NCBI GenBank assembly: GCA_000165345.1
Contig: CM000432.1
Location: forward strand, 224,001 to 288,000
Direction: 5' to 3'
Length of the DNA stretch: 64,000 nt
Under the pieces are notes generated by a model that was given only the letters and a program-made list of their open reading frames with translations, was not told the DNA's origin and did not search any database. Below are positions 2,196 through 62,838 of the stretch, in pieces; positions within the stretch are counted from its first letter, which is position 1; every line of letters starts with the position of its first letter. The translations under genes and the position numbers were made by a program.

Positions 2196-2207
2196 TTTCC
2201 CGCCAAA
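2196..2207. promoter_or_regulatory. E2F-like box TTTCCCGCCAAA about 150 bp upstream of the ESS2-like gene, followed by GGTACCCGTG at 2224-2233
   Basis: GC-rich island in an AT-rich spacer. It matches the TTTSSCGC E2F consensus. The same 10-mer GGTACCCGTG recurs at 22195-22204 next to other E2F-like boxes. Confidence 0.45.
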
Positions 2208-2763
2208 GCGTGGAAAAAAATCCGGTACCCGTGATTTTCAGTGCATCATTAGGTAAGAAAAGGAAGAGACAACAAAAAGAATTAAAGACAGTATAATGTG
2301 AGAAAAGAAAAGAATTTGTATAAAAACATTAAAATAAACTACAAGAAAAATAATGATACCTATATAGGAAAGTTAATTTATCAGAGAGTTTATTATTAAT
2401 GATTAGTTTTGTTTATTTCAATAGAGTTTTCCTTTCAATCAAGAATATATGATGTTATTCCTTCTAGGGAGCTGAGTTAAATGCACACAGCTTCTAAACT
2501 AGTTGTGACCTCTGCAATTTTCAAAGGATTAATAGAAAAATAATAAAAATAAGAGTATTAGTATTGGAGTAGTAACACAATAATGATGTTAATGAATATT
2601 GCGAATAAATGCATGTTATTATTATTATCATAGTATCAAGATGTTAAGAAAAGTTAGTAATCCCTGAATGATGACATTTATCTTCATTAATATCATTATG
2701 AATTAATAAACAATATTGTATTTCTTTTTGTTTCCGTTTTTCTTTATCTCTCTATTAAATCCT

Positions 2764-3165
2764 TTACTTCCTGTTTGATTGCTTCTTTTTTTGTTGTCTA
2801 GCCTTAGCTTCAGACAAAGCAGCCTTTTGAGCAGCACCAGAATTGCTTTGGTTTTGAGCTCTCTTCTGTTTAATATCATCCAAAGACAATCCTTCAATTG
2901 CTTTGTGAAGTCTAACAGTCTTTTTGTTTCTTCTCTTTGAAGTTGCTCCTTGATTGGTCAACTTCTTGTTCATTCTTCTCCATCCAACTGACCATTTAAG
3001 TTTAACTGGTCTAATTTTTTGGTGGAACAAAGATGCACATTTTTGGTTTAAAAATGTGGAGACTCTTCCATCTCTAGCAACAAACTTTCTTCCTCTTCCT
3101 GGGTATATACGGTATTCACTGTAAGAACAGAGATCCGTCTTGATTGTGGTTTTGACGGTAGACAT
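2764..3165 (-). CDS. RPL24: 60S ribosomal protein L24e (RPL24)
   Basis: 133 aa. DLCSYSEYRIYPGRGRKFVARDGRVSTFLNQKCASLFHQKIRPVKLKWSVGWRRMNKK matches the RPL24 consensus ([58 protein letters not shown]). Confidence 0.85.
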   Translation of the reverse strand: MSTVKTTIKTDLCSYSEYRIYPGRGRKFVARDGRVSTFLNQKCASLFHQKIRPVKLKWSVGWRRMNKKLTNQGATSKRRNKKTVRLHKAIEGLSLDDIKQKRAQNQSNSGAAQKAALSEAKARQQKKKQSNRK

Positions 3166-3558
3166 CCTTCAAATTTTTAATTTACTCCTTTTTTTTTGTT
3201 TTTCTTCTCCCTGAATTTTTTCTTGATTAGGAAAAAATTTTGTAATTTTTCCTGTCTTGGAAATTTATTTTACTTTTTTTTTCCTTCCTTAATTATTTAT
3301 ATTTATATTTTAATAATATTAATAATAATTAATCATTTATATATTTGATTAATACCGCCCCAAAAATTGACAATTAATTACTTTTGAATACTAGACCAAA
3401 TATTATTTTACAATTTGCTATTTTTACTTAGACGCCATTAATTTTAGCTATTAAAATAATTAATTCTTTTTCTCTTATTTATTCCTTTATTAATATTTAA
3501 TAATTTTTTTAATTACTTTTAATTTTCTAATTCGCATGAACCCGCCCAACAATGCCGC

Positions 3559-3570
3559 CGTCTCGAGACG
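3559..3570. promoter_or_regulatory. Perfect 12-bp palindrome CGTCTCGAGACG inside a GC-rich island (3533-3575) in the RPL24 upstream region
   Basis: Seen directly in the sequence. The flanking CCCGCCCAACAATGCCGCCG is also GC-rich. A TGCATGCA box lies at 3653-3660. Confidence 0.3.
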
Positions 3571-3782
3571 AGACATTTGTTGGACTAATATTACGAGAAA
3601 AAAGTGGGAAAAAAAGCGATGAAAAAAAAATGGGAAAAAAGAGAAGAAATATTGCATGCAAAATCTAATATTTATTTATTTTAAAATATAAAATTTAATA
3701 TGAAAATGATTTTACTACTGGAAATATACAATGATGATTATAATAATATTTCATGTTTATTTCTAAATTTTTCTAATTTGGT

Positions 3783-10410: not shown

Positions 10411-10430
10411 TGCCCGCCAAAAGGCGCCTC
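10411..10430. promoter_or_regulatory. Paired E2F-like element TGCCCGCCAAAAGGCGCCTC upstream of the 2091-aa gene; TGCATGCA-type boxes at 10100-10140
   Basis: CCCGCCAAAA reads as TTTTGGCGGG on the other strand. ACTGCATGTGCATGCAGCC lies 60-80 bp upstream of the ATG. Confidence 0.4.
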
Positions 10431-10709
10431 GTGTGGGGAATGTTTGGTGCATAAGACCTGGGTAAATCTTGAATTAAGAGAGCCTGAGTAATGAGAGGAA
10501 GTAATATTTTAATCAAGAAAAAAAAGGAGTAAAAGAAATTTATAATCTATGATAAGCTTAAGATATTACTGAAAATAATTGTAACAAGAAAGAATTTTGC
10601 AGATTTAATTGAATAAATAAAAACTAAAATTATTACTATATTATATATTAGGATTATGTGTAGGATTTATCAGACAGGCTAAGCCAATGATAGAAAGAGG
10701 GAAAACTTA

Positions 10710-13700: not shown

Positions 13701-14450
13701 TTGTAATCTTGGTATAATTAATTGCTTTCTATCAAGATTGCCGCCATTTGGGGGTTTGGCGGCAAAGGTGCGATCGATTTGCAAAGTGGTGTTGCATCTA
13801 TGATAATTATTATTAGAGCTAAGGAAATTGAATATATTTCGAATGACTCCAGATGTATTGAGGGATAGCAAATTAAGTAGAGGGTCAATCACTACTAAGT
13901 CCTTGTTTACTTTATCTCTATTTATCGACAAGTTGTTTTTGTCGCATCTCAGGATACGTCTTTCAGTGCCTGTTAAAAGGTTCGTTTGAATAAAGCTTAT
14001 AAAATCGATTTGATAGGGGTAGATAACAATTGTTTCTATTTTACTCCTATATTTGGATTCTATGTAGACATTATTTCTTTCTGAAAAGGGCATCCAACCT
14101 CTTTCACTTCTATACATCCAGTGTACAGAACATTCGAGCTTTTTTTTAGGACTATTAAGTTCCCCATCATAGTTTCTATCACAAAACTCTGATTTTCCTA
14201 CAAGAACTGTTCCTGGAGTTAATTTCTTATTAGAATTTATAAAGCTTTCATTAACAAAGTTTGTTTGTTTATTAGATATACTCGAATCAAATACTGGACT
14301 CACATTAGTGCATGAGTCATTGTTAGTTGAATCAACTTTATGATCTTTACAATAATTTATGGATACATCATGCATTTTGCACTGTATATAACTATCATCT
14401 TTCTTGCTAAGTTCTCTATAATTATCAAATACATGTTCATCGATTTTCAT
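10710..14450 (-). CDS. Large (1246 aa) protein with an N-terminal WWE domain; remainder unassigned
   Basis: Residues ~97-160, VHWMYRSERGWMPFSERNNVYIESKYRSKIETIVIYPYQIDFISFIQTNLLTGTERRILR, fit the WWE consensus (W.W...gW.pY......iE.ay.......Y.iDf..m.Q.N..Tg..R.irR). The rest is S/N-rich low-complexity sequence plus an unrecognised C-terminal globular part. Confidence 0.5.
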   Translation of the reverse strand: MKIDEHVFDNYRELSKKDDSYIQCKMHDVSINYCKDHKVDSTNNDSCTNVSPVFDSSISNKQTNFVNESFINSNKKLTPGTVLVGKSEFCDRNYDGELNSPKKKLECSVHWMYRSERGWMPFSERNNVYIESKYRSKIETIVIYPYQIDFISFIQTNLLTGTERRILRCDKNNLSINRDKVNKDLVVIDPLLNLLSLNTSGVIRNIFNFLSSNNNYHRCNTTLQIDRTFAAKPPNGGNLDRKQLIIPRLQIENCKGNLLSDSTINTDSHIEATLSPTGGYMIKSPTKSGINVTNKCRVNACNRVVQSDVASTTNVATNDNEIRDSRRNRSDMSVCFEDCTKEEKKDGQLSSFSPDTGLDDEIKIPRIYFHGVLGSNIPTKNVKLNTDVSPSSSSNTISNSSMSKFGETNKEEGEKSGSKSQSGSKSLFFFTPHKYRKSVGIIVPRILSSKFNNKKTTKNSEKETKNKYVRFNCGLMSPDQSKHTLGGYIGTPRRVNSNSSKEGQSKKKRDLEVSKEVAGSESYSSSPLLDNSSQTLSESANSNSTKTDNLKAFSVKSAFIILNEDAIPFDISENKPVSIFDGGRGIEKVKVTGSGIGVGTGGIVSNNEGAGGYLRVLNSWNRIGKMQNEFFETMSEREFSSQRISMDLNDFEDDKTASDTDARFLVDEDSRKLISLGNFDNNTGKPRPINWWFNHSVRHITVKFNCENNFNNKSTSLEIIPLLKPLLTGYMDDQIPIVRKLLPNNQVSGISTHVLLGLKSLEIIGLKPNKSEFPKISEFCFTELNNIIPISLEELYIVQSIIPISIFSLLLTRFPVPAASTFSFSLICNDDELPNTGLQTIQVINLHLSQNPCSHIKRRNRYGITRGRKHLAYSGDYSTCSHVHLDIFRKYNHVKICPWLAISNFVDEFVLRTPILVKCIIDPHNIMVVPSFNSRNLRDNSRFLYDHKDSQGNYGINNIGELSRGAEFVIMTANLILPLLIIQSHSIQNIIIGGEIDNQSESSSSKNVKKLRVDSIVFSCKYLPFKFFKVRNLDLFLDLNIDKTELGLFIRNNNSKDGIESISFTKVPEGKNQDIKQDSDSYCFQQLYNSIDSWIDEFSTWLDKYVCCDSIEILHVNLYVTSRYLELKVNNNHNSNNSTYRDNSNVYYGIGDKLNGQKSKHFYNGQAITETECLNNGSAISFGSEGSVNAVDCDIAISKNIFNFDPFYQKFSAKSKANHNSLNDVKIKVCISSHLQNFIFDTINLS

Positions 14451-15016
14451 TATTCATTCAATAGAGCACAAGGATCAAAAATTACTATATTAAAGCTTTT
14501 AAAATTAATTATATCCATAATCAATGCTAAACTAGTTAATTTGTTTCTTCTTTGTCAAAAATTATTGTTTGCTTAGCTGTTAATTTCTTATACAAGTATT
14601 TATATACATATGCATATATTTACATGCAAAAATATTTGCTAAATTTACCATATATAATACTAAATTTAATTCCTAAAATTAGTAAATTAAAAATTCCTAT
14701 AAACTTGGGTCTCTTATTTCTCAATTTTATAGCTTTCACTTATTTGTTTAATTCAATCTTCTTAATTCACTAATTGTATTTAATTCGGATCTTCAACTAC
14801 TTATTCTGAAAATATATTATTGCAATTTATTAGCTTAATAATTATCAATATTAATATATTATTAATACCAATATTATTATTTTAATGTGTTATCATTCAA
14901 CTCTCTATAATTCTTCCTTATCCAATTTAATACATGCTGCGTTTGTACTATCTCATTAATTCAATGTTATTTCTTTTTCCGCCAATTTTGAAATTTATCT
15001 CTTATTAATTCCCTAT

Positions 15017-15118
15017 CCGCCCGCCCCCCCTATTTCTTTCATATCTCCATGCTAATTTATTGCTTTAAATCTGTATTTAAAATGGCCATGGCGCGGGCGC
15101 CACAGAAGTGGCGCCGAG
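15017..15118. promoter_or_regulatory. GC-rich bidirectional promoter island (CCGCCCGCCCCCCC ... GGCCATGGCGCGGGCGCCACAGAAGTGGCGCCGAG) between divergent genes starting at 14450 (-) and 15477 (+)
   Basis: This is the most GC-rich 100 bp in the window. It contains GGCGCC twice and sits centrally in a 1-kb divergent spacer. Confidence 0.4.
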
Positions 15119-20674: not shown

Positions 20675-20955
20675 TTTTTATGATTTGGTTAGTATAGTCA
20701 AATAAATGATTCTTTTTAATTGTTGATATAATAAACCTTCAATAAGACCTTCATTAAAGTGAAACAAGTCTTTCCAACTCTTCTTGTCCTATTGACTACC
20801 CTCCAGTGTGTGTATTATTGGGTAGAATTCGTATTTTCATACAACAATTGGGTACAAGTTATTTAAAATTCAATATTAGCAGAAAATTTTCATTTAAAAT
20901 GATTTTATTCAACCTTTTTATTTATTGAAATTTCTCTATTTTCAATTTATCTTAT

Positions 20956-21038
20956 TTGGCGCCAAACCCATTTTTTTTTAATTTGAAAGAAATCGTACCG
21001 ATACAGTCAAAAAATTGTCGGGGTAGTTGGCGCCATTT
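20956..21038. promoter_or_regulatory. Two E2F-like boxes (TTTGGCGCCAAA at 20956-20967, TTGGCGCCATTT at 21027-21038) 280-360 bp upstream of ADA2
   Basis: Seen directly. The first is a palindromic double E2F site. Confidence 0.45.
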
Positions 21039-21111
21039 ATGATTAAAGTTAAAAAATAAACTAAAGAAAATGAAAAAAAGATGTTTATATACAAATAAAA
21101 TAAATAAATAA

Positions 21112-21149
<38 letters not shown>

Positions 21150-21556
21150 TGATAAGAATGAACATAATGTTTTCTTAATATTCATATTTTAATGTTTTTA
21201 CAATTATGTATGGAGTGTAAGAAAAATATTGGTTTTGTTTGATCTCACATTCATACACAAATAATATTATGAGCCATATTAATAGTATTTGAATTTAGAG
21301 ATTAAATAAATAAAAAATTGAGAATGATCTAGAAAATTAAATTATATCTCAGAAAAAAAAGAGAAATTGGTTTCAACTAGTATGAAAATTATTTCTAGTT
21401 TTGTAATAGGAATTAATTATAATATATAAATGCCTTAAAGCTGTAAGATTAGCTTTAATATTTATTAGTTATATATCAGATGAAGAATATAAAAATGTTG
21501 GCGCTTTTTTACTTTTATTAAAATAAGAAATTTGATTTGATCACCAAATGAAGTTT

Positions 21557-21885
21557 TTACTGTTCTCTCTTCTTCAAACTTGCTGGTATCATTGATTCTA
21601 ACATTCTAAAGCTTATTCTAGCTTTGCTAGTATTTTCAGCTATTGCAAAATATGATATTCTAGATTGATGCATTATATTGGAAGATGCTGTATCCCTTAA
21701 GATGTTATCTCCCCACTCACTATAAAGAGTTCATACAAAGTAGTTATTGTAAGATTATTAATTCATAAGAAATTAAAATAATAATAAACTCACCTTCTTT
21801 TAGTATTAATATGTCCAGTTCCTTGATACTTACTATGCAATTGCTCTAATTGAAAATATATTGTTGATCTGTTTTCCCCATCCAT
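21557..21885 (-). CDS. SF3B5: Splicing factor 3B subunit 5 (SF3b5/SF3b10), 2 exons; absent from the ORF track
   Basis: Exons on the minus strand are 21885..21794 and 21719..21557. The intron 21793..21720 (74 nt) runs GTGAGT...TTTATAG. The spliced product MDGENRSTIYFQLEQLHSKYQGTGHINTKRSEWGDNILRDTASSNIMHQSRISYFAIAENTSKARISFRMLESMIPASLKKREQ (84 aa) aligns with human SF3B5 (YTIHSQLEHLQSKYIGTGHADTTKWEW...NYFAIAENESKARVRFNLMEKM). Confidence 0.75.
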
Positions 21886-22146
21886 TTCTCCCAAATAACA
21901 AAAAAAGAAAATATTATATTTGTTTTTAATAATTAATTTTGAATTATTTTTTTTTTTTTTAACCTATGAATTTGGAAAATAATTCTATCAGGAACTTGCT
22001 TTTTATTATAATACTATATACAATTGGACTTCTCCCTTATCTTTCTATAATCTAATATTAATAAACTACTTCCCACTCAAATTATTCTCACTACTAGATT
22101 CTTTTTTCTTTGTAATTTTCTTTTTAATCTTCATCTTGATTTTGGG

Positions 22147-22220
22147 TTTGCGCGCCAAAATTCTACGATTTTAATATTAATTAAATATTATTTGGGTACC
22201 CGTGTAATAGGCGCCAAATG
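22147..22220. promoter_or_regulatory. Divergent SF3b5/UTP13 promoter: E2F-like TTTGCGCGCCAAAA (22147-22160), GGTACCCGTG (22195-22204), GGCGCCAAATG (22209-22220)
   Basis: Seen directly. The element arrangement mirrors the one upstream of the ESS2-like gene (2196-2233). Confidence 0.45.
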
Positions 22221-22361: not shown

Positions 22362-22411
<50 letters not shown>

Positions 22412-34888: not shown

Positions 34889-34911
34889 CCGCCAAATATT
34901 TGGCGCCAAAG
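34889..34911. promoter_or_regulatory. Tandem/inverted E2F-like boxes CCGCCAAATATTTGGCGCCAAAG about 80 bp upstream of the gene at 34992
   Basis: GCCAAATATTTGGC is an internal palindrome. Two TTTGGCGS half-sites lie in opposite orientation. Confidence 0.45.
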
Positions 34912-35873: not shown

Positions 35874-36136
35874 ATGAAATTTAAATTAGTTTAGATTATT
35901 TTTAATTTTATTCAAACAATTATTTATCAATTAATATTTTAGTGTATTTATTCGAATTTTTTTTTTAAATTTATTTCAATGATTTATATATCCGGTACCT
36001 TTATTTAGATCTTGTATACCGGCATTTACGTGGTAATAAAAAAAAAAAAAAATATTCTTTTTTTATTATTGGAAAAAAGTAGATTTTAAAAAAAGAGAAT
36101 TAATGCAAAGAATGATATGAGTAGATTATTACAAGA

Positions 36137-38824: not shown

Positions 38825-38838
38825 CTTGGCGCCAAAAC
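38825..38838. promoter_or_regulatory. E2F-like box CTTGGCGCCAAAAC in the divergent PMM/MCM7 promoter
   Basis: It lies 215 bp upstream of the MCM7 ATG and 110 bp upstream of the PMM ATG. MCM genes are classical E2F targets (established knowledge). Confidence 0.5.
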
Positions 38839-39049
38839 ATGCCGGTATGTAGGCTATTAAGCAAAAAAAGGCCGACCCCACACTACGATTAATATTATTA
38901 AGTAATGAGGATTTGAAATTAAGATAAAGTTGGTGAAAAATTATTAAAAGAAATTGCATTCAAGAGGTAATAAAATCAAAAAAAAGCAACGCTTAGAGAT
39001 CAGTCAGAACAATTGAATTACCCTTAGAAAGCGTATTTTAAAGTCCAAG

Positions 39050-42892: not shown

Positions 42893-43343
42893 TTTTTTGT
42901 TATAATATTAGTGGATGCATGTGCAATGAAATCTTTATTTCCTGTTCATTCCAATCTTTAGTATATTTAAAATGGCTTAATAATTGTACATAAAATTTGA
43001 AAACTCATTCGTTAAATATTAAAGAGTAATAAGATATTTCTCTTAATATATTTAAATTTGAATTGATTTATCCAATTATTTTATTTTAAATAGTTTTGTA
43101 TCATTAATTTAAAATTGTGTGTGCAAATAAATAAGTGGTTTATACAAATAATATACCCATTAATTTCATTCCATTAAATATTTTTCTTCATTCAAAAAGT
43201 GGAATAATTGGAAAATAATTACTTAATAAAAGTAATTAAATCCCTAAAATTATTGGGTTGCACAAATACTTTCAATCATTATTTCATTCCACTTAATGTT
43301 TATATTAACATGAAAATATTAGAAAATAACTCGACTAAAATAT

Positions 43344-43367
43344 GGCGCCAAAGCGCTTTGGCGCCAA
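43344..43367. promoter_or_regulatory. Perfect 24-bp palindrome TGGCGCCAAAGCGCTTTGGCGCCA (two inverted E2F-like boxes) followed by TGCATGCA at 43392-43399
   Basis: Seen directly in the divergent spacer between the membrane-protein gene (ATG 42892, minus strand) and the kinase gene (ATG 43836). The 70-aa ORF 43208..43420 covering it is probably spurious. Confidence 0.5.
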
Positions 43368-43835
43368 AACGAGCGGTATCTAAAAAAGAAAATGCATGCA
43401 ATATTAAAGAAAAAAAATAATGTATGGCAAAATTTGAGGAAACAAAAATTAAATAGAATTAATAAGTATTAAAGAAGTAATAGTTGTTTTAGATATTTAA
43501 TTATTATTTATTATTAAATCAAAATTTTTATAATTGAAGAGGAAATAAGTATAAAATATTTGACTAATAATGAATAAGATTTGAAAGAAAAGGGAAATAT
43601 AGATCAAGTTTCTAATAAATCTGGCCTTATTTATTTCAGATTTTTACATTCTTTGTTATAAAATAATTCTTAATTAGTATTACATATTACTATTGCAAAA
43701 TTAATTAATTAATAATTAATTAAAGTTATAAATATTAGTAGAAACGACTTCTGGAATATATTAAAAGTAAGGGAGTGGTTTTCTTTTTTCTTTTTTTTTT
43801 GAAATAACTAAATTATTATTGGAATATTAGAAGTT

Positions 43836-44789
43836 ATGGAACTAAGTGAAACAAAATTGGAAGATATAAATCACAATTCTGAGTTTAATAAAGATAATTA
43901 TTATAATGAAAAAAATAATTTGAATCATAATTTGGAGGTAAACAATTTAGATATTCAAGAAGTAAATAATAGAAGAAGTTCTACAAGATGTAGCATTAAA
44001 ATGAGAACATCTTTGGTAGATGACCTTCATCAATTAATGCCAAGAGTAGTAACATTAGAAAGAAATGATCAAGGTCAAATTAAATATAATTTAAAAGTTC
44101 CTGCTGGAGAATTAATAAACTCAAGTCAATTTGAATTTGTTAATTTAATTAGTTCAGGAGGATTTGGTGTTGTTAATCTTTGTAAAAGTAATAATCTGGG
44201 AAATTTACCCAATGGAAGAGAAATTGCAGTAAAATTATTTACAAGAGGAGGTAAAGAAGGTGGGAGTAATCAACTTTCAGATGAAAGACTAAAATCAATA
44301 GAATCTGAGTTAAATTATGTTCGTATGTTTAAGCATCCAAATATTATAGAATATTATGGTATTTTAAATCCATCAACTGGTCAAATAGGATTTGCAATGG
44401 AATATTTGGATGGTGGAACAGTTTTTGAAGTTTTATATTCTAAAATTAATATTATTCCTTTAGAAATTAGGAAGATGTGGTGTGTACAATTAGTTAAAGC
44501 TGTGGCTTATTTACATGAAGGATGCGCTCCTTATAGATTTATACATAGAGATATTAAAACAATTAATATGTTAATCAATAGAAAGGATCTTAGCATTCGA
44601 TTATGCGACTTTGGTAATGTTAGAGAGAGAACTTTTTCGTATTACAGACTAAATTATATGGGGACAGTAAGATATCTCCCCAGATCAGCAAAGTGGTTCA
44701 TTATTATGAAAAACAGAGTATGGCAATGGTCTGGAGATGAGATTTTGAAGTGGGATCCCTTATCAAAATTTAATGATGATAATCTTTAA
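43836..44789 (+). pseudogene. Ser/Thr protein kinase, catalytic domain truncated/frameshifted after subdomain VIII (possible pseudogene or mis-assembled gene)
   Basis: The Gly loop ISSGGFGVV, AVK, HRDIK and DFG are intact. After GTVRY the expected (S/A)PE segment is only recoverable in the +2 frame (KISPQISKVVHYYEKQSMAMVW). The reading then returns to frame 0 (VWSGDEIL...). The ORF ends without subdomains IX-XI, and no downstream exon encoding them was found. Confidence 0.45.
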
Positions 44790-45069
44790 TTAGTTGATAG
44801 AGAAGGAGTCCTCCAGAAATACCCTCATTTTTTCCACGTGTTTAAAAAAGTGTGTCAAAATGTCTACAACTGACCCTAATATGAGACCAAATAGTCAGCA
44901 TTACTAAGAGATGTTATTACACTTGACATGAAGTATTAGAAATCTAAAGCTTGGTAGGCTTGATAAGTACCCAAAAGTCTGATAAAATGTTGCTAATATT
45001 TGAACCAAGTATTTGATAATAGCACAAGTAAGCAAGTCATCTCTTTTTCGTTCCTCGCATACTTATACT

Positions 45070-45470
45070 GATACTAATACTACTGTTACTACAACAACAA
45101 CTACCACTACAACAACAACTACAACAACAACTACTACTACCACTACAGCAACTACTTCTACCACTACTACCACTGTTACCATTGCTATCACTGCTACCGC
45201 TGCTACTGCTACCACTGCTACTGCTACCACTGCTACTGCTACCATTGCTACTGCTACCATTGCTACTGCTACCATTGCTACTGCTACCATTGCTACTGCT
45301 ACCATTGCTACTGCTACCATTGCTACTGCTACCACTGCTACTGCTACCACTGCTGCCACTATCATATTTGCCTCTCGCTCTTCCCATTCTCCTCCTCATC
45401 TTCCTCCTTTTCATCCTCCTTTTCATCCTCCCCCTCCCCTCTTTTGCTCCCCTTTCCTCTCTTCCAGGAT
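45070..45470. repeat. Triplet-periodic minisatellite: (ACA/ACT/ACC)n, then 15-bp unit GCTACTGCTACCATT x about 8 with CAC variants flanking, then a CT-rich tract
   Basis: Seen directly. It would translate as poly-Thr / (ATATI)n on the plus strand, or (SSSNG)n / (VAVAM)n on the minus strand. It is preceded by an unusually GC-balanced 270 bp (44790-45060). Confidence 0.85.
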
Positions 45471-46168
45471 TGTTAATAACTAAAATCATTTCAAGCATTT
45501 TAATTTGGCTATTATTAATTATAATTGATCCAATATTTCGATATGGTATTTAACTATTTATTTTGAAAAGAAGAAAAAATATTAACTTTTCAATCTGTTG
45601 GATTCAATTTCTCATTACTTAATATATTTCTAATTATATTAATAATATTAACAATTTTAGGGTCAGAAATTTATACCATAAATTGAAATTATTTTTGCAT
45701 GTACTAATAAATTATTACGCTTATTATTTACAATGTCAAAAAAAAAAAGCGAAGTAGCGCCAAACCTGTTTTAATAGTTATTTTTTGACACGTAATAAAA
45801 AATTATTAAAACAATAATCGATTAAAATAGTATTTGACTTACAAAGTTAGGCAGCGAACAAGAAAAGCTATAATTCAGACATTTGAATATTAAAGTTTAG
45901 TTTTCTTCATATTCTCTTTCTTTTTAATAATTGTTTGGATTAATCGATCAACAATAAAAGTTGAAATGAATTGATAAAGGTTTATAAGATTTTTATTGAA
46001 TAAAGGAGGAATATTTGAATTTTATCAACTTTGAGGGAAGACAAATTTTCTTTATATATTTTGCCTTTAGATTTAAACAATTTTAAATTAATAAAGCTGA
46101 TTATTTGAATAAAGTGGAAGAAAGTTTTCTTTCTTTTATTTAATTAATTTAGTGGAATATAACTTAAA

Positions 46169-54476
<8,308 letters not shown>

Positions 54477-55250
54477 TTCTAAAACTAATTATTAATTTAC
54501 TTATTCAACATTTTTTTGAAAATTATAAATTAACATATCATTAATAATTATAGATATTTGTAGAAATCTTATATTAAGAAATTAAGCTTATTCTCTATAT
54601 TTTACTATTCATTTACTTACTTATGTTTACTAAATTTGATTTTCCTAATAAAAGATGATTAGAAACTTACTTAACTAAAATATTCTTAAAAAAAAAAGAA
54701 TCAAAGAAATAATCTAATAATAATCAAAAATGACTTGTAACATGTAATATTTATTTTTATTATTATTATTATTTGCACAATTAAAATTAATTATTTTTGA
54801 GACAGCCCGCCAATTTAATATAATTTAATATATTATTTAATTAATATTATTAAGTACCTTGAATAGTGTCTGGAAGAAGAGAAGTAAAGGAAAAGGAGAA
54901 ATTTTTTTTTTTACATTAAAAATAGGTAAAAAGGATCATATCAGTAAAAAACTTCCTTGAAATTAAACAGATATACAGATATATATATATATATATATAT
55001 ATAGAAGAATCTAAATACAAATAGTTTATTGTAACATATAATTTACAATCGACTATTTTGAAGAAAATTAGAAAGAAAAGGAATAAGAAGAAAAGAAAAA
55101 CAAGGTCTTGAATTTTCTTTTTAGTAATCTCAAGTCAAGGAAGAACTTAGTAAATTACTAATAACTGATACAATCCCAAGTAAAATAAGAAGAGAAGTCT
55201 ATTTAAAAAAAAAAAAAAAAGAATATTATTTTAAAAAATTTGTAATTCTT

Positions 55251-56315
55251 GTGATCATGAGTACCGACTTTATGAATGTAAGAAGAAGTGCTTGGGCTGA
55301 TGAGGATATTGACGACTTTGAACCATCATTTGATGAACCATTAAAAGGTTTTGAATCAAAACCTGATAAAGATGGTATTAAACATGTAATTAGTTATATT
55401 AAAGATAGTAAAGGTTCTACTATTAAAATCACAAAAAAAATTAAAGAAGTTAGAAATATTATAAAAATTAATAAGAATGTTGTGAATAGAAGATTAATTA
55501 TGGAAAGAAATCTTGCAGATAGATTCAATTCTGATACAGATGTTCCAAAACTTGGAGATGAAATATCTATTGATATTCCAAAGAATACAGATTCAATGAA
55601 CTTTCAAGATAAAGATAATGATGATGATTATTATTTCATGGATTTACCCACATCTAATAATAATAAACTATCAATGTTTAAAAAATCTGGAAATAATTAT
55701 CCATTCATTCTTGGTGATGAACAGATTGAAAAAATTACTTATGGACAACAAAATAACTCTATGAATGATATGAATTCATCTTTTACTGGTGGATTTGGAT
55801 CTAATGCTTCCTCTTCTAATGGACTAAATCTTGGATTTGGTACATCACTTACAAACAAAGGTGGAATGAGTGATGTTAAAACAACAGTTGGAAGTGGTAT
55901 AATCACTTCAAATATTAACTCCAGTAACAATACTGGAATTAATACTATTGGTACAAGCATTGCTAGTAATAATGCTAACAGATATCAACCTCCATTCCTT
56001 AGAACCACTTCCAGTAGTGCATTTGAAAGAGGATCAAATTTACAATCATCACATAGAGATGATTGTACAGTCAGAGTTGCAAATCTTTCTGAAGATGCAA
56101 CTGAAGAAGATCTACAAGAACTCTTTAAAACTGCTGGAAGAGTTGTAAAAGTCTTTCTTGCTAAGAATAAAAATAATTCCAAGAATACTAAAGGTTTTGC
56201 ATTTATTACTTATTCTAAGAGAGAAGAGGCCCAAAATGCTATTAGAAAACTTAATCGTCATGGATATGATAACTTGCTACTTAATGTAGAATGGGCAAAA
56301 ACTAAAGAAAAGTGA
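55251..56315 (+). CDS. EIF3G: Translation initiation factor eIF3 subunit G (eIF3g/TIF35), lacking the usual CCHC zinc knuckle
   Basis: The C-terminal RRM CTVRVANLSEDATEEDLQELFKTAGRVVKVFLAKNKNNSKNTKGFAFITY...YDNLLLNVEWAK is nearly identical in pattern to the human EIF3G RRM (ATIRVTNLSEDTRETDLQELFRPFG...KGFAFISF...YDHLILNVEWAK). The N-terminal SAWADEDIDD...IKITKKIKEV matches the eIF3g N-domain. No C-x2-C-x4-H-x4-C motif is present. Confidence 0.85.
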   Translation: MIMSTDFMNVRRSAWADEDIDDFEPSFDEPLKGFESKPDKDGIKHVISYIKDSKGSTIKITKKIKEVRNIIKINKNVVNRRLIMERNLADRFNSDTDVPKLGDEISIDIPKNTDSMNFQDKDNDDDYYFMDLPTSNNNKLSMFKKSGNNYPFILGDEQIEKITYGQQNNSMNDMNSSFTGGFGSNASSSNGLNLGFGTSLTNKGGMSDVKTTVGSGIITSNINSSNNTGINTIGTSIASNNANRYQPPFLRTTSSSAFERGSNLQSSHRDDCTVRVANLSEDATEEDLQELFKTAGRVVKVFLAKNKNNSKNTKGFAFITYSKREEAQNAIRKLNRHGYDNLLLNVEWAKTKEK

Positions 56316-56699
56316 ATTAAGGCAGGATAGAGACTCATGTCTGAGCCCGCCATTTATCAAGTTTTAATATAATGATCAATTTTATATTTATTATTATAGT
56401 TATTTTCGATACGAAAAATTATCACAAATTCATTAATTTACTATAATTTTAGAAAAAAATCGACTATTTGTTTAATTAATTAATTACATATACTTATTAC
56501 CTCTAGATTCTACAATTTTCTATATTATTATTCATAATGTTAATAATAAGCATGCTCGCTTTTGCGTAAACATTTGTTTACATGTCAGCTCTACACCTAA
56601 TTATCATTCGCTCTCTTTTATTCTTTTCTTCTTTTTTTATTCTTCTTTTCTCTATCGATTTATACTTATACTTGTACTATAGTTTTTTATCATATTAAA

Positions 56700-58742
56700 T
56701 TATCCAAATATGTGTTTATATCTCCTTAATAGACCATAATTTGTACCACATGCAATTTCCATTCCATCACTATCGTAATGTAATAAAACTACATCCTCAG
56801 AATCATCATTAATGTCATCACAAAAAATTGTACCTAAATTAGATCCATCATACAGTGAATGTATATATATTGCTTTTCTTAAAGAATTTTTATTTTTGGA
56901 AAAAAAAGCATTTTCATCGTCAATTATAGGACAGAATGGCGCCAATTGTCCATCATGTTGATTTAAATAGCAACTTGTATCTAATTCAAAATCAATAATC
57001 TGATTTTGACTTTGATTTTGGCAAGAATAATTCGTATTATTTATTGAATTATTATTAGTAATAGTTATAATTTCTTGTTCATTCTCAGATATTGTTTCAC
57101 CAGTAATAGTTGTTGTCAATGACATATTATGATTAGATCTATTAACTAAAGAAGAATTTTCAATATTATTTGATCCATAGAAACATGTGAAATATTTTGA
57201 TGCTTGAATAAATTGAGGTATAAAACCACTCATACTCATATAGCTACTATTTTCATGATTATTGTAATTTTCATTCAAATGTTGTATATTATTTGTATCT
57301 TCATTTTCTTGTTCGTATTCATTTAATATTAATCCATTGCAGTAAGTCATAATTATTCCTTTACTAAAACAAACATTTACACAATCAGCAGTTTGTATTC
57401 CTGGTAATGAAATTCTGAATTTAATTTCTACTTCACCCAAATTATTACATGTCCATACATTAATTTCATCAGTAGAAACTGTTAAAAAATTAGTAAAGTT
57501 ATTAATTTCAGTAATTTGATCAAAAAAGATGAATGCTTTAGGATGAAAGTCTCTAGTTCTTGAAATCTTTTTGCTTGAATTTGTTAGTAAATTCCATACT
57601 CTAATTGAACAACTTTCTTGTTTTAATAGTAAATACTCTCTGTGTAATTCTAAAAATTGTATATCTAATGATGATCTTAATTTTACTATAGTTTTTTCCT
57701 ATAAATATTAATTTTTTTTAATATTCATTTTATTTTTGTTTTGAATAAAAAATCAACTTACAAGGTATTCCCCATTTGATATATTACATAAATGTGCTTC
57801 TATTGTTGAATATGATGGTTGTCTAATAAAAAATAGTAATTAATAAGAAAAAAAAAATCGCATATCATTGATAAAACTTACCTAAAAAACACAACAGTAC
57901 CATCAGATATTCTCATTTCCAAAAAATTTTGGCCTTTAATTTGATATAGTTTATTATAATTACTCATATCCCAAAAAGTAAAATAATCATTTTGCGGATC
58001 TGCTACTACTATTCTTCCATTCCCATCTAAAGGAAAAAGTTTATTTTTTTTTTTATTATTTTTTAAACTCACCATCGAATTCAATAAATCCTGGATTCCC
58101 TACTTTAATTTGTTGAAATTCCTTTCCAATATTACTTGAGATATTTCTTTTTAACATTACATCTTCTATATTAAAAATAGTACAATTCAACATTGATGGA
58201 TCATGATGAAATGCTATTACTATTGTATTATTCAACTTGTTGTAAAATAAAGATCTTATTGCTTTATTTAATAAATATTATGATTTATCTTTTAATTGAA
58301 TTCATTTAATTTTCAAACTTACTTTCTGATGGAGATCTATTTAAAATACATAATATTTTATTATTATGCCTATTATATGCTGTTCCTAAACCAGAATCAT
58401 TTCTTTTTATTGATTTTTAATTAATAAATTTAATTTGATTTAATTATTTAAAACTTACAATACAAAAAGTATCTCTTTACTAAATACAACCTCAATAATC
58501 TTAGATGGTTTACTTAATTTACAATGCCCACGTATTATTTGCGGTAAATCATTTGTTATATTAAGAATACTACTCAATTTCATTCTTTTGAATTCCAATG
58601 TTTGTGATAGTGTTGGGGGTATTCTAAACTCATTGCTTTGTGCTCCTCCATAGTATTTATTTTGTATAATATTTTTCACTATTGATAAATTAACCCTTTT
58701 GTTTGTAACATTGTAATTTCTTATACTTTTCTTCTTTGTCAT
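56700..58742 (-). CDS. Six-exon gene encoding a protein of about 570 aa with WD-like beta-strand motifs and an Asn-rich insert; function unknown
   Basis: Exons on the minus strand are 58742..58459, 58402..58323, 58261..58073, 58026..57882, 57822..57762 and 57698..56700. All five introns are 46-63 nt and all begin GTAAGT or GTGAGT and end AAG/TAG. The frame is continuous across all junctions (…VFSKEILFV/LNDSGLG…SPSE/TIRSLFYNK…IEFD/DGNGRIVVADPQNDYFTFWDM…TVVFF/RQPSYSTIEAHLCNISNGEYL/EKTIVKL…SIRVWNLL…). Confidence 0.55.
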
Positions 58743-59227
58743 TTATTTAATTTTTTTAAAAATAATTCCTCTTTTAATTTATAACGAAAAAAAAAAAAAT
58801 TAGAAGTAAATGTTAATTCTAATAAAAAACCTCTTTGACCCTTAATTTTAATTCAATGCTTTATACTTAATTAATTTATTATCATTAATTTCACTATTGA
58901 CATATAATTTTTTTCAAAGTATTAGAACAAAATATTTATTTTATTTTATTTTATTTTTTTCAATTGATCAACTCTTTCTGTAATTAATTAATCAAAATAT
59001 TTTTTTTTTTAATAAAATAGTTGTAAAAAAAAGATATTTATATTTATTACACTGATCCCTTCTATATTAACGCATTTACTTCACATATTAAATATATTTC
59101 TTTGTCTTATTATTATTCTAATTTTTTTATTCCTATCTATTTAAAATTAATTAAAAAAAAAAATCTTTAGTGGTCAAAAAATGACGTGGCAATATTAAAT
59201 ATTTTTTTAAAAATTAATTTAAATAAT

Positions 59228-59362
59228 TTTATGTGGACGAAGATTCTCCAATAAAATATTTTTTTTAATTCAAGATGGATTATATGGACATATTAATTAA
59301 CAAGTTGCAATAGTTCCTATACCGGTGTTTGACAATTTACATGCAGATTTGCATGCACACCA
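59228..59362. promoter_or_regulatory. Upstream module TTATGTGGACGAA ... ACATGCAGATTTGCATGCACACC in the divergent spacer between the 6-exon gene and the MYND gene
   Basis: YATGTGGAC plus GCATGC boxes, the same pairing as at 28536-28590. Confidence 0.4.
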
Positions 59363-59698
59363 CAACAAAAAAATTGACCTAAAAAAATATCTAAAATATA
59401 AAAGTTAAAGAGGAAAAAGGAAAGCTTTCCAATTTTTTCTTCAAGAAGAAGGAATTAATTTGAACTAATTTTGGTAAGTAAAAATTTTTTTTAAAAATTA
59501 ATATTACTTTATTTTTTAATTCGCAAATGTATATAATCATGTGCAATTTATATCAATTAAAAAAAAAAAAATTAAACTTAAATGGCGGTAACACGAGTTT
59601 CAATGATTTAATTAAAATTTATTATTAGAATTTTTTTTTTTACTGAAATAATATCATCGTTATAGTTTATATAATAAGAAGTTAATTAAACAAATAAG

Positions 59699-60403
59699 AT
59701 GGATTCTTTAGATGAAGTGATTCACGAGAAATTTACATATGTTTTTATTCCATACCATGACTCTGACAAAATAGAAGTTAGAGAATTTTCTGGTAAGGAA
59801 GTCAACTTCAAGAATTTAATGCGCTCACATTTTTCCAGTAAATTAAGGAGTAGTGAAGTTTCTAAACTCCAAGAAACATTTAACAAGGAATCAAAAGCTT
59901 CAGACCAACTTGTTGAACAAGCAATCTTAAATAGTCAAAATTATGAAATTATTAGTCTTGTATTACCAAACAAAAGTAATAATTTTACAGCAACAAATGC
60001 ATATATTGATTCAATTGGAAGAATTAAAGAAATGCCTATTAATCCAAGAGCATCCAAAATTTGTTCAACTGATGTAAGAGGGGATTGCTTTATTTCATCT
60101 TCATTTGACGATGAATATGTATTTAAGAGAGTCAGTTTTGGTGAGGAAGAATATAATAAGCTTTGCAAAAATCCTCCATCTGCAGAAAATAGGTGGGATG
60201 CTTCAAAGATTTCAACAATGTTAAATAATCCAACAGATTTACTAAAAAGTAAAGAAGAAGATAAGATTTTAAATAGATGTGAGAGTTGTAGAAAAGAATC
60301 TGAAAAGACTTTACTAATTTGTAGTAGGTGTAAGAAAGTAGCATACTGCAATGTTGATTGCCAAAGAAAAGATTGGAGTTATCACAAACAATTTTGCAAA
60401 TAA
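59699..60403 (+). CDS. MYND-type zinc finger protein
   Basis: The C-terminal CESCRKESEKTLLICSRCKKVAYCNVDCQRKDWSYHKQFC is a canonical MYND finger (C-x2-C...C-x2-C...C-x3-C...H-x3-C). A GTAAGT at 59476 suggests a possible 5' UTR intron. Confidence 0.7.
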   Translation: MDSLDEVIHEKFTYVFIPYHDSDKIEVREFSGKEVNFKNLMRSHFSSKLRSSEVSKLQETFNKESKASDQLVEQAILNSQNYEIISLVLPNKSNNFTATNAYIDSIGRIKEMPINPRASKICSTDVRGDCFISSSFDDEYVFKRVSFGEEEYNKLCKNPPSAENRWDASKISTMLNNPTDLLKSKEEDKILNRCESCRKESEKTLLICSRCKKVAYCNVDCQRKDWSYHKQFCK

Positions 60404-60543
60404 TCTAATTAAAAAATGAAAAAGTAAGAAAAATCCATAAATTAATTTATAAAAATAGTTATTAATAAATACTAGAAAAAAAAACTAAATTAAATATAGA
60501 ACAATATACTTGTAATTATTATTATTACAAATTAATAATAAAT

Positions 60544-62583
60544 CTAAAGCTCATCACGAGCAGTATGTATCCAAATAAAGTCTAAAATAGAATTAACTTC
60601 TCTTTCTCCATCAAAATCTATTGGATTTGCCTTTTCTCTCTTCTTGTACAATTTTATTGTTGGAAATCTAAAGATTTTTCGACCAATTTGATCGTCTGGA
60701 ATAAAATTTGCTGACATGTCAATCTTTGCAACAAGAACATTAGTCTTTGATGTTACAATGTTAGCAACTTCATTATATATTGGGTCAAAGGTCTTACAAT
60801 GTCCGCACCATGGAGTATAAAATAACACTAATACATCTCTAGTAGAATCATAAACTATTTCTTTGAATGTGTTACCAACCAGAATAAAAACTGGTCCATT
60901 TTGTTTTGAAGGAGTTACTTGGGAATGATAAGTAATGTTCACCATTCCTGATCTTACTTCATCTATAAAATCACTAATAATGTTTGGTGAAAAATTAATT
61001 GAAGTATGGTTATTTAAAATAATCCAGTTTGATTCATTTGGTTTTCCTATTGATAAAATCTCTGCATTATTATTACTACTAGTAATACCACCAATACCTG
61101 TATTGCTTTCTAAATTATTTAAGTAAATCTTTGGTAAATCTAAATGATATTTCTTTGGAGGTGATACATTAAGGTCATTAATCATAATTATTGATGGAAG
61201 TAAGTCATCATCAATATGTAGAAAGTCCATAAATCTTCGATTAATTGGACCTTCATTTCCAGACATTACAAATAATGGTCTTTCTTCAAGATATTTATTA
61301 GATTTATCAGCTTTTTCGTTTCTAATAGCAATCACTCTCTGTAAAATATTATAAAATTGATGAATAATTGAAGATTCTTTATTAAGTTCTTCAATATAAT
61401 TTTCACTATTTCCACTAAAAATTAATAATAATATTGTGCCACCATTATCAATCAAATTACCTATAGTGTCTTTATTTAAAAATATAATATTTTCTTGTTT
61501 ATAATAATCAATAGTATTTAAAATTAATGCTTCTTCTTTAAAAGGGCCATTAATTGTTTTTACATGTTTTCCAGAATTAAATAAAAGTATTTTGGATTTT
61601 TTTTCATGATTTTCTATTATATCCGTAATATTAAATTGAAATTCATTTTTATCAAGAATATCTTTGTTAATTAATAAACTCTTTTTAAGGTCATTATAAT
61701 TAGCTTCACCAAATATAACATCATCATATATTTTACAAATATCAACAACTAATAAGTATTCTGTATTATTATATTTTTTTTGAGATTCAAATTCATGTAA
61801 ATATATTACTGAATATCCACTAATTTCCAAAAAGAATTTAATATTATCTATAGTAGAAAGTTGAATTAATTGTGATTTTGGGTTATTTTCTAATCTAGAA
61901 ATTTGTTGTATAATCCAAGAAATAACTTTCTTATGATATATATTCCCATAAAAATCAATAATTTTTAATTTTTGATTTTCTTCTTTTTTAACTAATTTAA
62001 TAGTTGGATAATCTAAAACATTAAGCTTCATTGATAAATTTGGGAATTCTGGAACATTTACTAAACCTATTAATAACTTTTTTGAATAGAAAAATCGATT
62101 AGGATGTTCTATAGAAAAATCATTAGAATGCTCAAAATACTTTACCATTTCATGTATTTGATTAATAGCTCTTTTGCTCATTCCACACCATGGTGCTGTA
62201 AATAGAATGATTAGATAGTCATTATTAGCTAATAAGTTTTCAAAAGATTCATCTGTTTGTATGGTAACAATTTCAAATATTTTATTAGTAATATTTTCAT
62301 TTACATGACTATTATCATCGATAACTTCTTCAAGGTCAATTCCTTTAGCTGATGTAAAATGCGATTCAATAAACGGAATAAGATCTTCTGTATTATCTTT
62401 ATTTGATTTATTACTACTTAGATTTATAAACTTTGTATTTGAATTTAATGTATCATTTAGTTCAGAAGTATTATCTGAAACTACATGTTTAGTTTCAAAT
62501 AAAAGCAATAAAAAAAGTAGTGAAGTTATATATATTAGTATAAATGAAGTGGTTGAACGATTTATATTATTTAATCCCCACAT
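60544..62583 (-). CDS. ER-resident protein disulfide isomerase family member (two thioredoxin-like active-site domains, C-terminal RDEL)
   Basis: N-terminal signal/anchor. The first site FTAPWCGMSKRA is CxxS-type. The second site FYTPWCGHCKTF is canonical CGHC. The C-terminus ...IHTARDEL is a KDEL-type ER retrieval signal. Confidence 0.8.
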   Translation of the reverse strand: MWGLNNINRSTTSFILIYITSLLFLLLLFETKHVVSDNTSELNDTLNSNTKFINLSSNKSNKDNTEDLIPFIESHFTSAKGIDLEEVIDDNSHVNENITNKIFEIVTIQTDESFENLLANNDYLIILFTAPWCGMSKRAINQIHEMVKYFEHSNDFSIEHPNRFFYSKKLLIGLVNVPEFPNLSMKLNVLDYPTIKLVKKEENQKLKIIDFYGNIYHKKVISWIIQQISRLENNPKSQLIQLSTIDNIKFFLEISGYSVIYLHEFESQKKYNNTEYLLVVDICKIYDDVIFGEANYNDLKKSLLINKDILDKNEFQFNITDIIENHEKKSKILLFNSGKHVKTINGPFKEEALILNTIDYYKQENIIFLNKDTIGNLIDNGGTILLLIFSGNSENYIEELNKESSIIHQFYNILQRVIAIRNEKADKSNKYLEERPLFVMSGNEGPINRRFMDFLHIDDDLLPSIIMINDLNVSPPKKYHLDLPKIYLNNLESNTGIGGITSSNNNAEILSIGKPNESNWIILNNHTSINFSPNIISDFIDEVRSGMVNITYHSQVTPSKQNGPVFILVGNTFKEIVYDSTRDVLVLFYTPWCGHCKTFDPIYNEVANIVTSKTNVLVAKIDMSANFIPDDQIGRKIFRFPTIKLYKKREKANPIDFDGEREVNSILDFIWIHTARDEL

Positions 62584-62816
62584 AATTTTTCAACAGGAAT
62601 TGCCATAAGCTTTGAATTGATAAATTAGAATTGGCATAAATTCAATGCTGAGATTTAAGAATAAATAAGTGCAATTCACTCAGATCAATTACACTTTTCT
62701 TCTCTTATCTATAAATATACATATATAATTTATACATTCACTTTTTTTTTAGTAGTGAAATAATTTAATTTTTTTTTATCCTTATTTTGGTCAAATTACA
62801 TAATTATTAAATGAGT

Positions 62817-62838
62817 TTTGGCGGTACTTGCGCCGCCA
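62817..62838. promoter_or_regulatory. E2F-like element TTTTGGCGGTACTTGCGCCGCC in the divergent PDI/Bud13 promoter
   Basis: TTTTGGCGG matches TTTSSCGS. The inverted partner is GCGCCGCC. Confidence 0.4.

What the first reader, a model, noticed from the sequence alone, without database searches (positions are those of the whole stretch)
2196..62838. Near-universal E2F-like GGCGCCAAA / CCCGCCAAA promoter boxes, often palindromic or paired
GC-rich 9-12-mers matching the E2F/DP consensus TTTSSCGC stand out in almost every AT-rich intergenic spacer. They occur at 2196-2207, 10411-10430, 15084-15118, 20956-20967, 21027-21038, 21497-21510, 22147-22160, 22209-22220, 34889-34911, 38825-38838, 43344-43371, 45755-45767 and 62817-62838. 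Weaker CCCGCCA boxes lie at 54801-54813 and 56345-56357. Several are perfect palindromes, for example TGGCGCCAAAGCGCTTTGGCGCCA at 43344-43367. One sits in the shared PMM/MCM7 promoter, and MCM genes are classical E2F targets. Finding them in front of ribosomal, splicing, acid phosphatase and unknown genes alike suggests a general promoter-defining element rather than a cell-cycle-specific one. A pervasive TGGCGCCA motif together with TGCATGCA is, to my memory, the hallmark upstream lexicon reported for Cryptosporidium. The intron density and poly-Asn tracts here are not typical of C. parvum.
Basis: partly seen in the sequence, partly recalled or inferred. Interest (0 to 1): 0.8.

Follow-up and report, generated by a model that had tools for sequence, protein, structure and literature searches.

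The report
Known E2F-like promoter boxes, Cryptosporidium parvum
The GC-rich TTGGCGCCAA boxes between genes are real, far above chance and conserved across species, but the window is Cryptosporidium parvum chromosome 4, and these boxes are the already published "E2F" upstream motif of that parasite.

Summary
All 15 listed sites exist. GGCGCCAAA occurs 9 times against 0.02 expected. Of 27 relaxed E2F-like sites, 21 lie in the 22% of the window that is intergenic (p=9e-10). De novo k-mer ranking of the spacers returns GGCGCCA(A) and TGCATGCA as the top non-repeat words.

The window is C. parvum chromosome 4. It is 100% identical over 22 kb to CP029783.1, and MCM7 is cgd4_970.

"Near-universal" is overstated. 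Eleven of 16 5' spacers carry a site, or 12 counting a bare GGCGGG core. Both acid-phosphatase promoters lack one, and one "weak box" sits in a 3'-3' spacer.

In four orthologous spacers from five intestinal-clade species, box core positions are conserved 36/44 against 658/3142 for the rest of the spacer.

The motif, its genome-wide excess, its dominance in open-chromatin peaks and the two E2F plus two DP genes are all published (Bankier 2003, Mullapudi 2007, Oberstaller 2013, Xiao 2025). Direct E2F/DP binding has still not been shown.

Verdict: real, functional-looking, already known, low novelty.

The parts
2196..2207 (.). TTTCCCGCCAAA box, about 155 bp upstream of the ATG (2047) of the minus-strand 325-aa ORF. 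It lies downstream of RPL24e.
10411..10430 (.). Paired cores CCCGCCAAAA + GGCGCC, 10 bp apart, 362-371 bp upstream of the 2091-aa minus-strand ORF (ATG 10058).
15084..15118 (.). Cluster of three cores (GGCGCG 15090, GGCGCC 15096, GGCGCC 15110) in the divergent spacer between the WWE gene (-) and the 1024-aa ORF (+).
20956..20967 (.). Palindromic TTGGCGCCAAAC, about 290 bp upstream of the ADA2 ATG (20674, -).
21027..21038 (.). TTGGCGCCATTT, about 360 bp upstream of ADA2.
21497..21510 (.). Half-site GTTGGCGCTTTTTT, 830 bp upstream of ADA2 and just 3' of SF3b10. Weaker.
22147..22160 (.). TTTGCGCGCCAAAA in the divergent SF3b10 (-) / Utp13 (+) spacer.
22209..22220 (.). AGGCGCCAAATG in the same SF3b10/Utp13 spacer.
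34889..34911 (.). Pair CCGCCAAATATTTGGCGCCAAAG, cores 13 bp apart. It lies 89-103 bp upstream of the 293-aa ORF (+) and about 1 kb from the PAP ATG. The box is conserved in position in C. meleagridis, chipmunk genotype I, C. canis, C. bovis and C. ryanae, and remains a pair in the first three.
38825..38838 (.). CTTGGCGCCAAAAC in the 373-bp PMM (cgd4_960, -) / MCM7 (cgd4_970, +) divergent spacer. TTGGCGCCAA is invariant in five intestinal-clade species.
43343..43371 (.). 24-bp perfect palindrome TGGCGCCAAAGCGCTTTGGCGCCA (43343-43366), followed by AAACG. The two GGCGCC cores are 16 bp apart, in the centre of the cgd4_980 (-) / protein kinase (+) spacer. The paired architecture (12-16 bp) is conserved in six species.
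45755..45767 (.). TAGCGCCAAACCT, 412 bp upstream of the Npa1/NopRA1 ATG (46169). The orthologous position holds a full GGCGCC core in all six other species compared, within TGGCGCCAA in four of them.
54801..54813 (.). Weaker GACAGCCCGCCAA, 442 bp upstream of eIF3g (+).
62817..62838 (.). TTTGGCGGTACTTGCGCCGCCA (two cores 14 bp apart) in the 361-bp PDI (-) / Bud13 (+) divergent spacer.
56345..56357 (.). Probably not a promoter box.
3541..3549 (.). It is the only E2F-like candidate for the ribosomal gene.

Best explanation
The boxes are instances of the published 'E2F' upstream motif family of Cryptosporidium parvum, with core [C/G]GCGC[C/G] or GGCGGG and full form TTTGGCGCCAAA. The window is C. 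parvum chromosome 4, around cgd4_960-980.

The boxes sit in the 5' spacers of a compact genome, often in spacers shared by two divergent genes, typically 100-500 bp from the ATG. They often come as pairs 10-16 bp apart.

The most likely mechanism is binding by the parasite's E2F/DP winged-helix heterodimers (two E2F and two DP genes). These would mark a nucleosome-depleted, orientation-independent promoter region used by many housekeeping genes, not only cell-cycle genes. The palindromic core with T/A flanks on both sides lets a heterodimer bind in either orientation, which suits bidirectional promoters.

Shown here: sequence match, enrichment, promoter-side location and purifying selection across species.

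Taken from the literature: genome-wide over-representation, dominance in ATAC-seq peaks and the presence of E2F/DP genes.

Inferred only: that E2F/DP is the protein that binds, and that binding activates transcription.
For: Enrichment and location in the window:
- Enrichment against shuffles.
- 21 of 27 sites lie in 22% of the sequence.
- Consensus TTT-GGCGCC-AAA.
- De novo k-mer ranking of the spacers puts GGCGCCA/GGCGCCAA directly after simple repeats.

Cross-species evidence:
- In syntenic 16-22.6-kb loci of seven other species, GGCGCC occurs 26 times in intergenic DNA and 4 times in genes, with 19% of the sequence intergenic (p=1e-15).
- Box core columns are conserved 36/44 against 658/3142 for other spacer columns (odds ratio 17, p=2e-17). 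The box is one of only one to four fully conserved runs of 6 or more bases in each spacer (alignment).
- Position relative to the ATG is kept from C. parvum to C. bovis and C. ryanae in three of the four spacers.

Literature:
- E2F 5'-TGGCGCCA-3' is the most over-represented upstream motif. It occurs upstream of 161 of 200 expression clusters, including ribosomal genes.
- It is the top motif in 888 upstream ATAC-seq peaks, and more than half of those are bidirectional promoters.
- There are two E2F and two DP genes, retained in Cryptosporidium alone among apicomplexans.
- PMM and MCM7 share one box but fall in different expression clusters, 38 and 9. This fits a general element rather than one that sets timing.
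Against: - No experiment has shown E2F/DP binding to these sites in Cryptosporidium. The 2025 review and the 2013 paper both say so.
- E2F/DP transcripts peak in early asexual stages, yet the motif precedes genes that peak at every time point.
- Four to five of the 16 5' spacers lack the box.
- In the PMM/MCM7 spacer the box is absent in C. bovis, C. ryanae and C. andersoni, while a CCCCACAC element is invariant.
- No TSS data were available here, so position relative to transcription starts is unknown.
Confidence: 0.75

Rival explanations
1. The box is a functional promoter element, but a protein other than E2F/DP reads it, for example an uncharacterised DNA-binding protein or an ApiAP2 domain. 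The resemblance to the E2F site would then be coincidental.
For: There is no direct binding evidence for E2F/DP. The motif precedes genes of every expression class, while E2F/DP expression is stage-biased. Rb and most E2F partner proteins are absent.
Against: The full 12-bp form TTTGGCGCCAAA matches the E2F/DP site beyond the core. The phyletic pattern fits: Cryptosporidium is the only apicomplexan genus that keeps E2F/DP, and E2F is its most abundant upstream motif. The AP2 study classed the E2F motif as one recognised by known non-AP2 proteins and left it out of its figure of AP2-bound motifs; the AP2 motifs it reports are TGCAT, CACACA and the G-box.
Confidence: 0.15
2. The boxes act mainly on chromatin or chromosome organisation, as a nucleosome-excluding, boundary or replication-origin element in AT-rich spacers, rather than as transcription-factor sites that drive the neighbouring genes.
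For: They are short GC islands in spacers of 19-31% GC. They lie in ATAC-seq open regions whose accessibility does not always track transcript presence. Their distance from the ATG is loose, 90-1000 bp.
Against: The exact sequence, not merely GC content, is conserved across species. Other GC-rich words are not enriched to the same degree. No box was seen in 3'-3' spacers, although that test is weak.
Confidence: 0.07
3. The pattern is chance or a compositional artefact of a low-GC genome.
For: None beyond the small size of the sample.
Against: None of the 100 or 1000 shuffles reaches the observed counts. The motif is conserved at orthologous positions in up to seven other species.
Confidence: 0.01

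Closest known systems
C. parvum 'E2F' upstream motif family: 5'-TGGCGCCA-3' / [A/T][C/G]GCGC[G/C][A/T], with the GGCGGG variant (Bankier 2003; Mullapudi 2007; Oberstaller 2013; Xiao 2025)
   Same: Same organism and same chromosome region. cgd4_970 is in the 2007 gene table with a 374-bp upstream region. Same core and flanks, same excess in non-coding upstream DNA, and same co-occurrence with TGCATGCA.
   Different: Nothing essential. I did not see either described in the papers I read.
Canonical E2F/DP sites of animals and plants (TTTSSCGC; Arabidopsis TTTCCCGCC, as cited; the overlapping inverted TTTCGCGCCAAA of the DHFR promoter, from my own knowledge)
   Same: A CG-containing symmetric core flanked by T and A runs. 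Palindromic or paired arrangements. Presence in an MCM gene promoter.
   Different: In C. parvum the site precedes most gene classes rather than a G1/S regulon. No Rb-family pocket protein is known in apicomplexans. Binding is unproven.
ApiAP2 site TGCATGCA (AP2_1)
   Same: It is the other strongly enriched palindromic 8-mer, found only in spacers: 8 of 8 intergenic, 8 observed against 0.10 expected.
   Different: A different sequence and a different factor family. In this window it marks four of the five 5' spacers that lack an E2F-like box (p=0.036, small sample).

Membership tests
C. parvum 'E2F' upstream motif family (Oberstaller 2013) | Core [C/G]GCGC[C/G] or GGCGGG, typically TGGCGCCA | tested here: met
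   There are 14 SGCGCS cores and 8 GGCGGG/CCCGCC cores. The flanks give TTT-GGCGCC-AAA.
C. parvum 'E2F' upstream motif family (Oberstaller 2013) | Over-represented in upstream non-coding DNA relative to coding DNA and to chance | tested here: met
   21 of 27 sites lie in 22% of the window (p=9e-10). Within intergenic DNA there are 10 GGCGCC against 0.10 in shuffles.
C. parvum 'E2F' upstream motif family (Oberstaller 2013) | The sequence is from C. parvum | tested here: met
   100.000% identity over 22,022 bp to CP029783.1. The MCM7 protein clusters with the C. parvum Iowa II protein EAK87642.1. MCM7 is cgd4_970.
Eukaryotic E2F/DP binding site | Matches TTTSSCGC, with a symmetric CG core flanked by T/A | tested here: met
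   13 matches against 0.67 expected, 12 of them intergenic.
Eukaryotic E2F/DP binding site | Cognate E2F and DP winged-helix proteins are encoded in the same genome | not testable with these tools
   Only the window and fetched loci can be searched. The literature reports two E2F genes (cgd1_1560/1570, cgd6_1430) and two DP genes (cgd7_3650, cgd8_1850).
Eukaryotic E2F/DP binding site | Direct, sequence-specific binding by the E2F-DP heterodimer | not testable with these tools
   The papers read report no such experiment for Cryptosporidium.
Eukaryotic E2F/DP binding site | Preferential association with a G1/S or DNA-replication regulon under Rb control | tested here: not met
   A box precedes MCM7, but boxes also precede PMM, ADA2, SF3b10, Utp13, eIF3g, PDI, Bud13, a kinase and unknown genes. 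No Rb orthologue is reported in apicomplexans. This lowers the claim that it is a classical cell-cycle E2F element. It does not lower the claim that E2F/DP binds it.
Functional cis-regulatory element (generic) | Purifying selection relative to the surrounding non-coding DNA | tested here: met
   Core columns conserved 36/44 against 658/3142 in four spacers across four to five species. Positions are retained as far as C. bovis and C. ryanae in three of the four spacers.
Functional cis-regulatory element (generic) | Lies in accessible chromatin upstream of the TSS | not testable with these tools
   The literature reports E2F as the top motif in sporozoite ATAC-seq peaks. The peak tables were not available.

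The most novel reading that the evidence does not exclude
Cryptosporidium E2F/DP may have been repurposed from a cell-cycle regulator into a general factor that defines bidirectional promoters, typically reading pairs of GGCGCC cores 12-16 bp apart. The genome's promoters would then fall into an E2F class (housekeeping) and an AP2/TGCATGCA class (stage-specific genes, such as the two acid phosphatases here). The general idea is already floated in the literature but untested. The conserved paired spacing and the complementarity seen here would be the new details.
Probability: 0.35. Interest if true: 0.45.

Novelty: already known. Interest (0 to 1): 0.15.

Why it matters
Cryptosporidium is a leading cause of childhood diarrhoea, and its gene regulation is poorly understood. 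The E2F-like box is the most abundant candidate promoter element in its genome, and the factor family is absent from other apicomplexans. The finding rediscovers this correctly from raw sequence, but it adds nothing a Cryptosporidium specialist does not know.

These support function and point to well-defined spacers, for example the 373-bp cgd4_960/970 spacer, for reporter mutagenesis.

Tried and rejected
- A comparison of 5' spacers against 3'-3' spacers gave 0 relaxed sites in the 3'-3' spacers. These total only about 0.9 kb, against about 12.5 kb for 5' spacers, so the test has no power.
- I looked for ATAC-seq peak tables to map onto the window. No supplementary files are held.
- Templeton 2004, the original E2F/DP identification, is not held. 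I relied on how later papers cite it.
- I considered searching the protein database with a metazoan E2F DNA-binding domain to recover the Cryptosporidium E2F/DP proteins. The 120-row output would be filled with animal, plant and fungal sequences, and the answer is already in the literature, so I ran no further search on it.
- I looked for unannotated genes or RNAs in the box-rich 20675-21557 spacer. There is no convincing ORF, no tRNA and no Rfam hit anywhere in the window.
This was rejected.
Full report
**What the window is**

The window has 26.6% GC and carries long, closely packed ORFs. The MCM7 ORF (39065-41638) is 100% identical to a cluster representative whose cluster also holds the C. 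parvum Iowa II and C. hominis MCM7 proteins. It differs at 3 of 857 residues from C. parvum and at 10 of 857 from C. hominis.

At the DNA level, window 8653-30674 is 100.000% identical to C. parvum chromosome record CP029783.1. Window 50543-64000 differs from it by one mismatch and one extra base. C. meleagridis is 89% identical over the compared 22 kb.

Mullapudi 2007 lists MCM7 as cgd4_970 with a 374-bp upstream region, which matches the 373-bp spacer here. The Oberstaller 2013 supplement names cgd4_960 as phosphomannomutase and cgd4_980 as a 7-TM hypothetical protein.

**Gene map**

Pfam scans and the gene calls on the C. parvum records give 24 genes. In order they are:
- a WD40 gene fragment, a 325-aa ORF (-), RPL24e (-), a 2091-aa ORF (-), a WWE protein (-), a 1024-aa ORF (+), ADA2 (-);
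- SF3b10 (-, 21558-21886), Utp13 (+), two histidine acid phosphatases (-), poly(A) polymerase (-), a 293-aa ORF (+), a WD40 protein (+);
- PMM (-), MCM7 (+), cgd4_980 (-), a protein kinase (+), Npa1/NopRA1 (+), eIF3g (+), DUF7899 (-), a MYND protein (+), a PDI-like thioredoxin protein (-) and Bud13 (+).

This leaves 13,956 intergenic bases, made up of 16 promoter-side (5') spacers and seven short 3'-3' spacers.

**Checking the observation**

All 15 listed sites hold the stated sequences. The 24-bp perfect palindrome is at 43343-43366.

| Pattern | Scope | Observed | Expected from shuffles |
|---|---|---|---|
| GGCGCCAAA | whole window | 9 | 0.02 |
| TTTSSCGC | whole window | 13 | 0.67 |
| GGCGCC | intergenic only | 10 | 0.10 |
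| [C/G]GCGC[C/G] | intergenic only | 12 | 0.24 |
| relaxed TTSSCGS/SCGSSAA | intergenic only | 21 | 1.47 |

- The relaxed sites split 21 intergenic to 6 genic, although intergenic DNA is 22% of the window and has lower GC (p=9e-10).
- A de novo k-mer ranking of the spacers against a second-order Markov model returns three kinds of word: simple A/AT runs, one 15-bp coding-like tandem repeat, and then GGCGCCA(A) and (T)GCATGCA.
- The ten intergenic GGCGCC sites give the consensus TTT-GGCGCC-AAA.

**Where the boxes sit**

Eleven of the 16 5' spacers have at least one site, or twelve counting the bare CCCGCC core at 3541 upstream of RPL24e. Five of the six spacers shared by divergent genes have one. 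Distances to the nearest ATG run from 89 to about 500 bp.

- Both acid-phosphatase spacers lack a box. So do the spacer between the 293-aa ORF and the WD40 gene (263 bp) and the DUF7899/MYND spacer.
- The box at 2196 is downstream of RPL24e and upstream of the next gene.
- The weak box at 56345 lies in a 3'-3' spacer.

The absence of relaxed sites from 3'-3' spacers carries no weight, because those spacers total only about 0.9 kb.

**Evidence for function from related genomes**

I fetched the syntenic MCM7 neighbourhood from C. meleagridis, chipmunk genotype I, C. canis, C. felis, C. bovis, C. ryanae and C. andersoni.

- In these seven loci GGCGCC occurs 26 times in intergenic DNA and 4 times in genes, with 19% of the sequence intergenic (p=1e-15).
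- I compared four orthologous spacers: PAP/293-aa ORF, PMM/MCM7, cgd4_980/kinase and kinase-to-Npa1. A GGCGCC-type core sits at nearly the same distance from the ATG in almost every intestinal-clade species. This holds as far as C. bovis and C. ryanae in three of the four spacers.
- In MAFFT alignments of four to five species, box core columns are fully conserved 36/44, against 658/3142 for the remaining spacer columns (odds ratio 17, p=2e-17). The box is one of only one to four fully conserved runs of 6 or more bases in each spacer (alignment).
- Cores are often paired. Five of the eleven box-bearing spacers in the window have two cores 10-16 bp apart. The pair in the cgd4_980/kinase spacer persists at 12-16 bp in C. 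parvum, chipmunk genotype I, C. canis, C. felis, C. bovis and C. ryanae, although the sequence between the cores changes.
- In C. andersoni the signal in this small sample is weak.

**What it most likely is**

These are instances of the published C. parvum E2F motif.

- Oberstaller 2013 reports 5'-TGGCGCCA-3' as the most over-represented upstream motif. It lists cores [C/G]GCGC[G/C] and GGCGGG, including upstream of ribosomal genes. It notes that Bankier 2003 had already seen the word on chromosome 6, and that Templeton 2004 found E2F/DP pairs in C. parvum that are absent from Plasmodium.
- The 2014 AP2 paper states that the motif lies upstream of 161 of 200 co-expression clusters.
- Xiao 2025 finds E2F as the single most prominent motif in 888 upstream ATAC-seq peaks of sporozoites. 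More than half of these are bidirectional promoters. The paper lists two E2F and two DP genes.
- The 2025 review tabulates the motif and stresses that almost none of this has been validated experimentally.

The mechanism I consider most likely is that E2F/DP heterodimers bind the palindromic box and mark an open, orientation-independent promoter. Sequence, location and conservation support this. The identity of the binding protein and its effect on transcription remain inferred.

PMM and MCM7 share one box yet belong to different expression clusters, 38 and 9. This fits a general element rather than one that sets expression timing.

**Rivals**

- A different protein may read the box. This cannot be excluded, but the 12-bp match and the phyletic coincidence with E2F/DP retention make it less likely.
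- A purely chromatin-level role is possible, but the exact word is conserved, not just GC content.
- Chance is excluded.

**Verdict**

The session contributes only supporting detail.

Noticed in passing
window 44652-45042: A patch of about 400 bp in the 3' part of the protein-kinase gene carries about 35 single-base deletions relative to C. parvum CP029783.1 and CP141121.1. The 15.6 kb before it are identical to CP029783.1. The ORF is cut to 317 aa (43836-44789), whereas the reference gene is an uninterrupted 392 aa. This looks like low-quality sequence in the source assembly.
   Followed up: partly
window 51712: One extra T in a T-run, relative to CP029783.1, splits Npa1/NopRA1 into ORFs 46169-51757 and 51729-54476. 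The reference gene encodes 2764-2768 aa. This is a frameshift artefact, not an intron.
   Followed up: partly
window 45088-45431: Coding-like tandem repeats, including a 15-bp unit ACTGCTACCATTGCT repeated 12 times at 45172-45354. The array is about 390 bp shorter than in CP029783.1 and CP141121.1. One C. parvum annotation calls a 298-aa minus-strand gene here.
   Followed up: partly
window 3653, 10130, 28560, 28564, 31623, 43393, 59350, 63629: TGCATGCA (the ApiAP2 AP2_1 box) occurs 8 times, all intergenic, against 0.10 expected. Four of the five 5' spacers without an E2F-like box have it, including both acid-phosphatase promoters (Fisher p=0.036, small sample).
   Followed up: partly
window about 38870-38890 (PMM/MCM7 spacer); alignment A1 columns 261-271: The element (G)ACCCCACAC, reverse complement GTGTGGGG(T), a G-box/CACACA-type AP2 motif, is nearly unchanged in seven of the eight Cryptosporidium species (CCCCACAC in each); C. 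andersoni keeps a recognisable but altered copy (CTCCAAAT), and six columns are identical in all eight. It is more deeply conserved than the E2F-like box, which is missing from C. bovis, C. ryanae and C. andersoni in this spacer.
   Followed up: partly
window 35874-36136: The 263-bp spacer between the 293-aa ORF and the WD40 gene (same strand) has neither an E2F-like box nor TGCATGCA. The only box serving this pair lies about 100 bp upstream of the first gene. The pair is a candidate dicistronic unit of the kind described by Xiao 2025. I did not check it against their list.
   Followed up: no
window 42275-42282 and 56937-56945: Two full boxes, TTGGCGCC and TGGCGCCAA, lie inside coding ORFs (cgd4_980 and DUF7899). 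They could be chance, or internal or antisense promoters.
   Followed up: no
L010 (C. andersoni) 14208-14240 and 14862-14895: GC-rich segments (GGTGTGAGGCCCGGTTAGTACT ... GGGGACC.CCCGGGAAGACC) are duplicated about 650 bp apart in the spacer downstream of the cgd4_980 orthologue. They look like a repeated small RNA or tRNA-like element. C. andersoni also lacks the kinase gene at this position.
   Followed up: no
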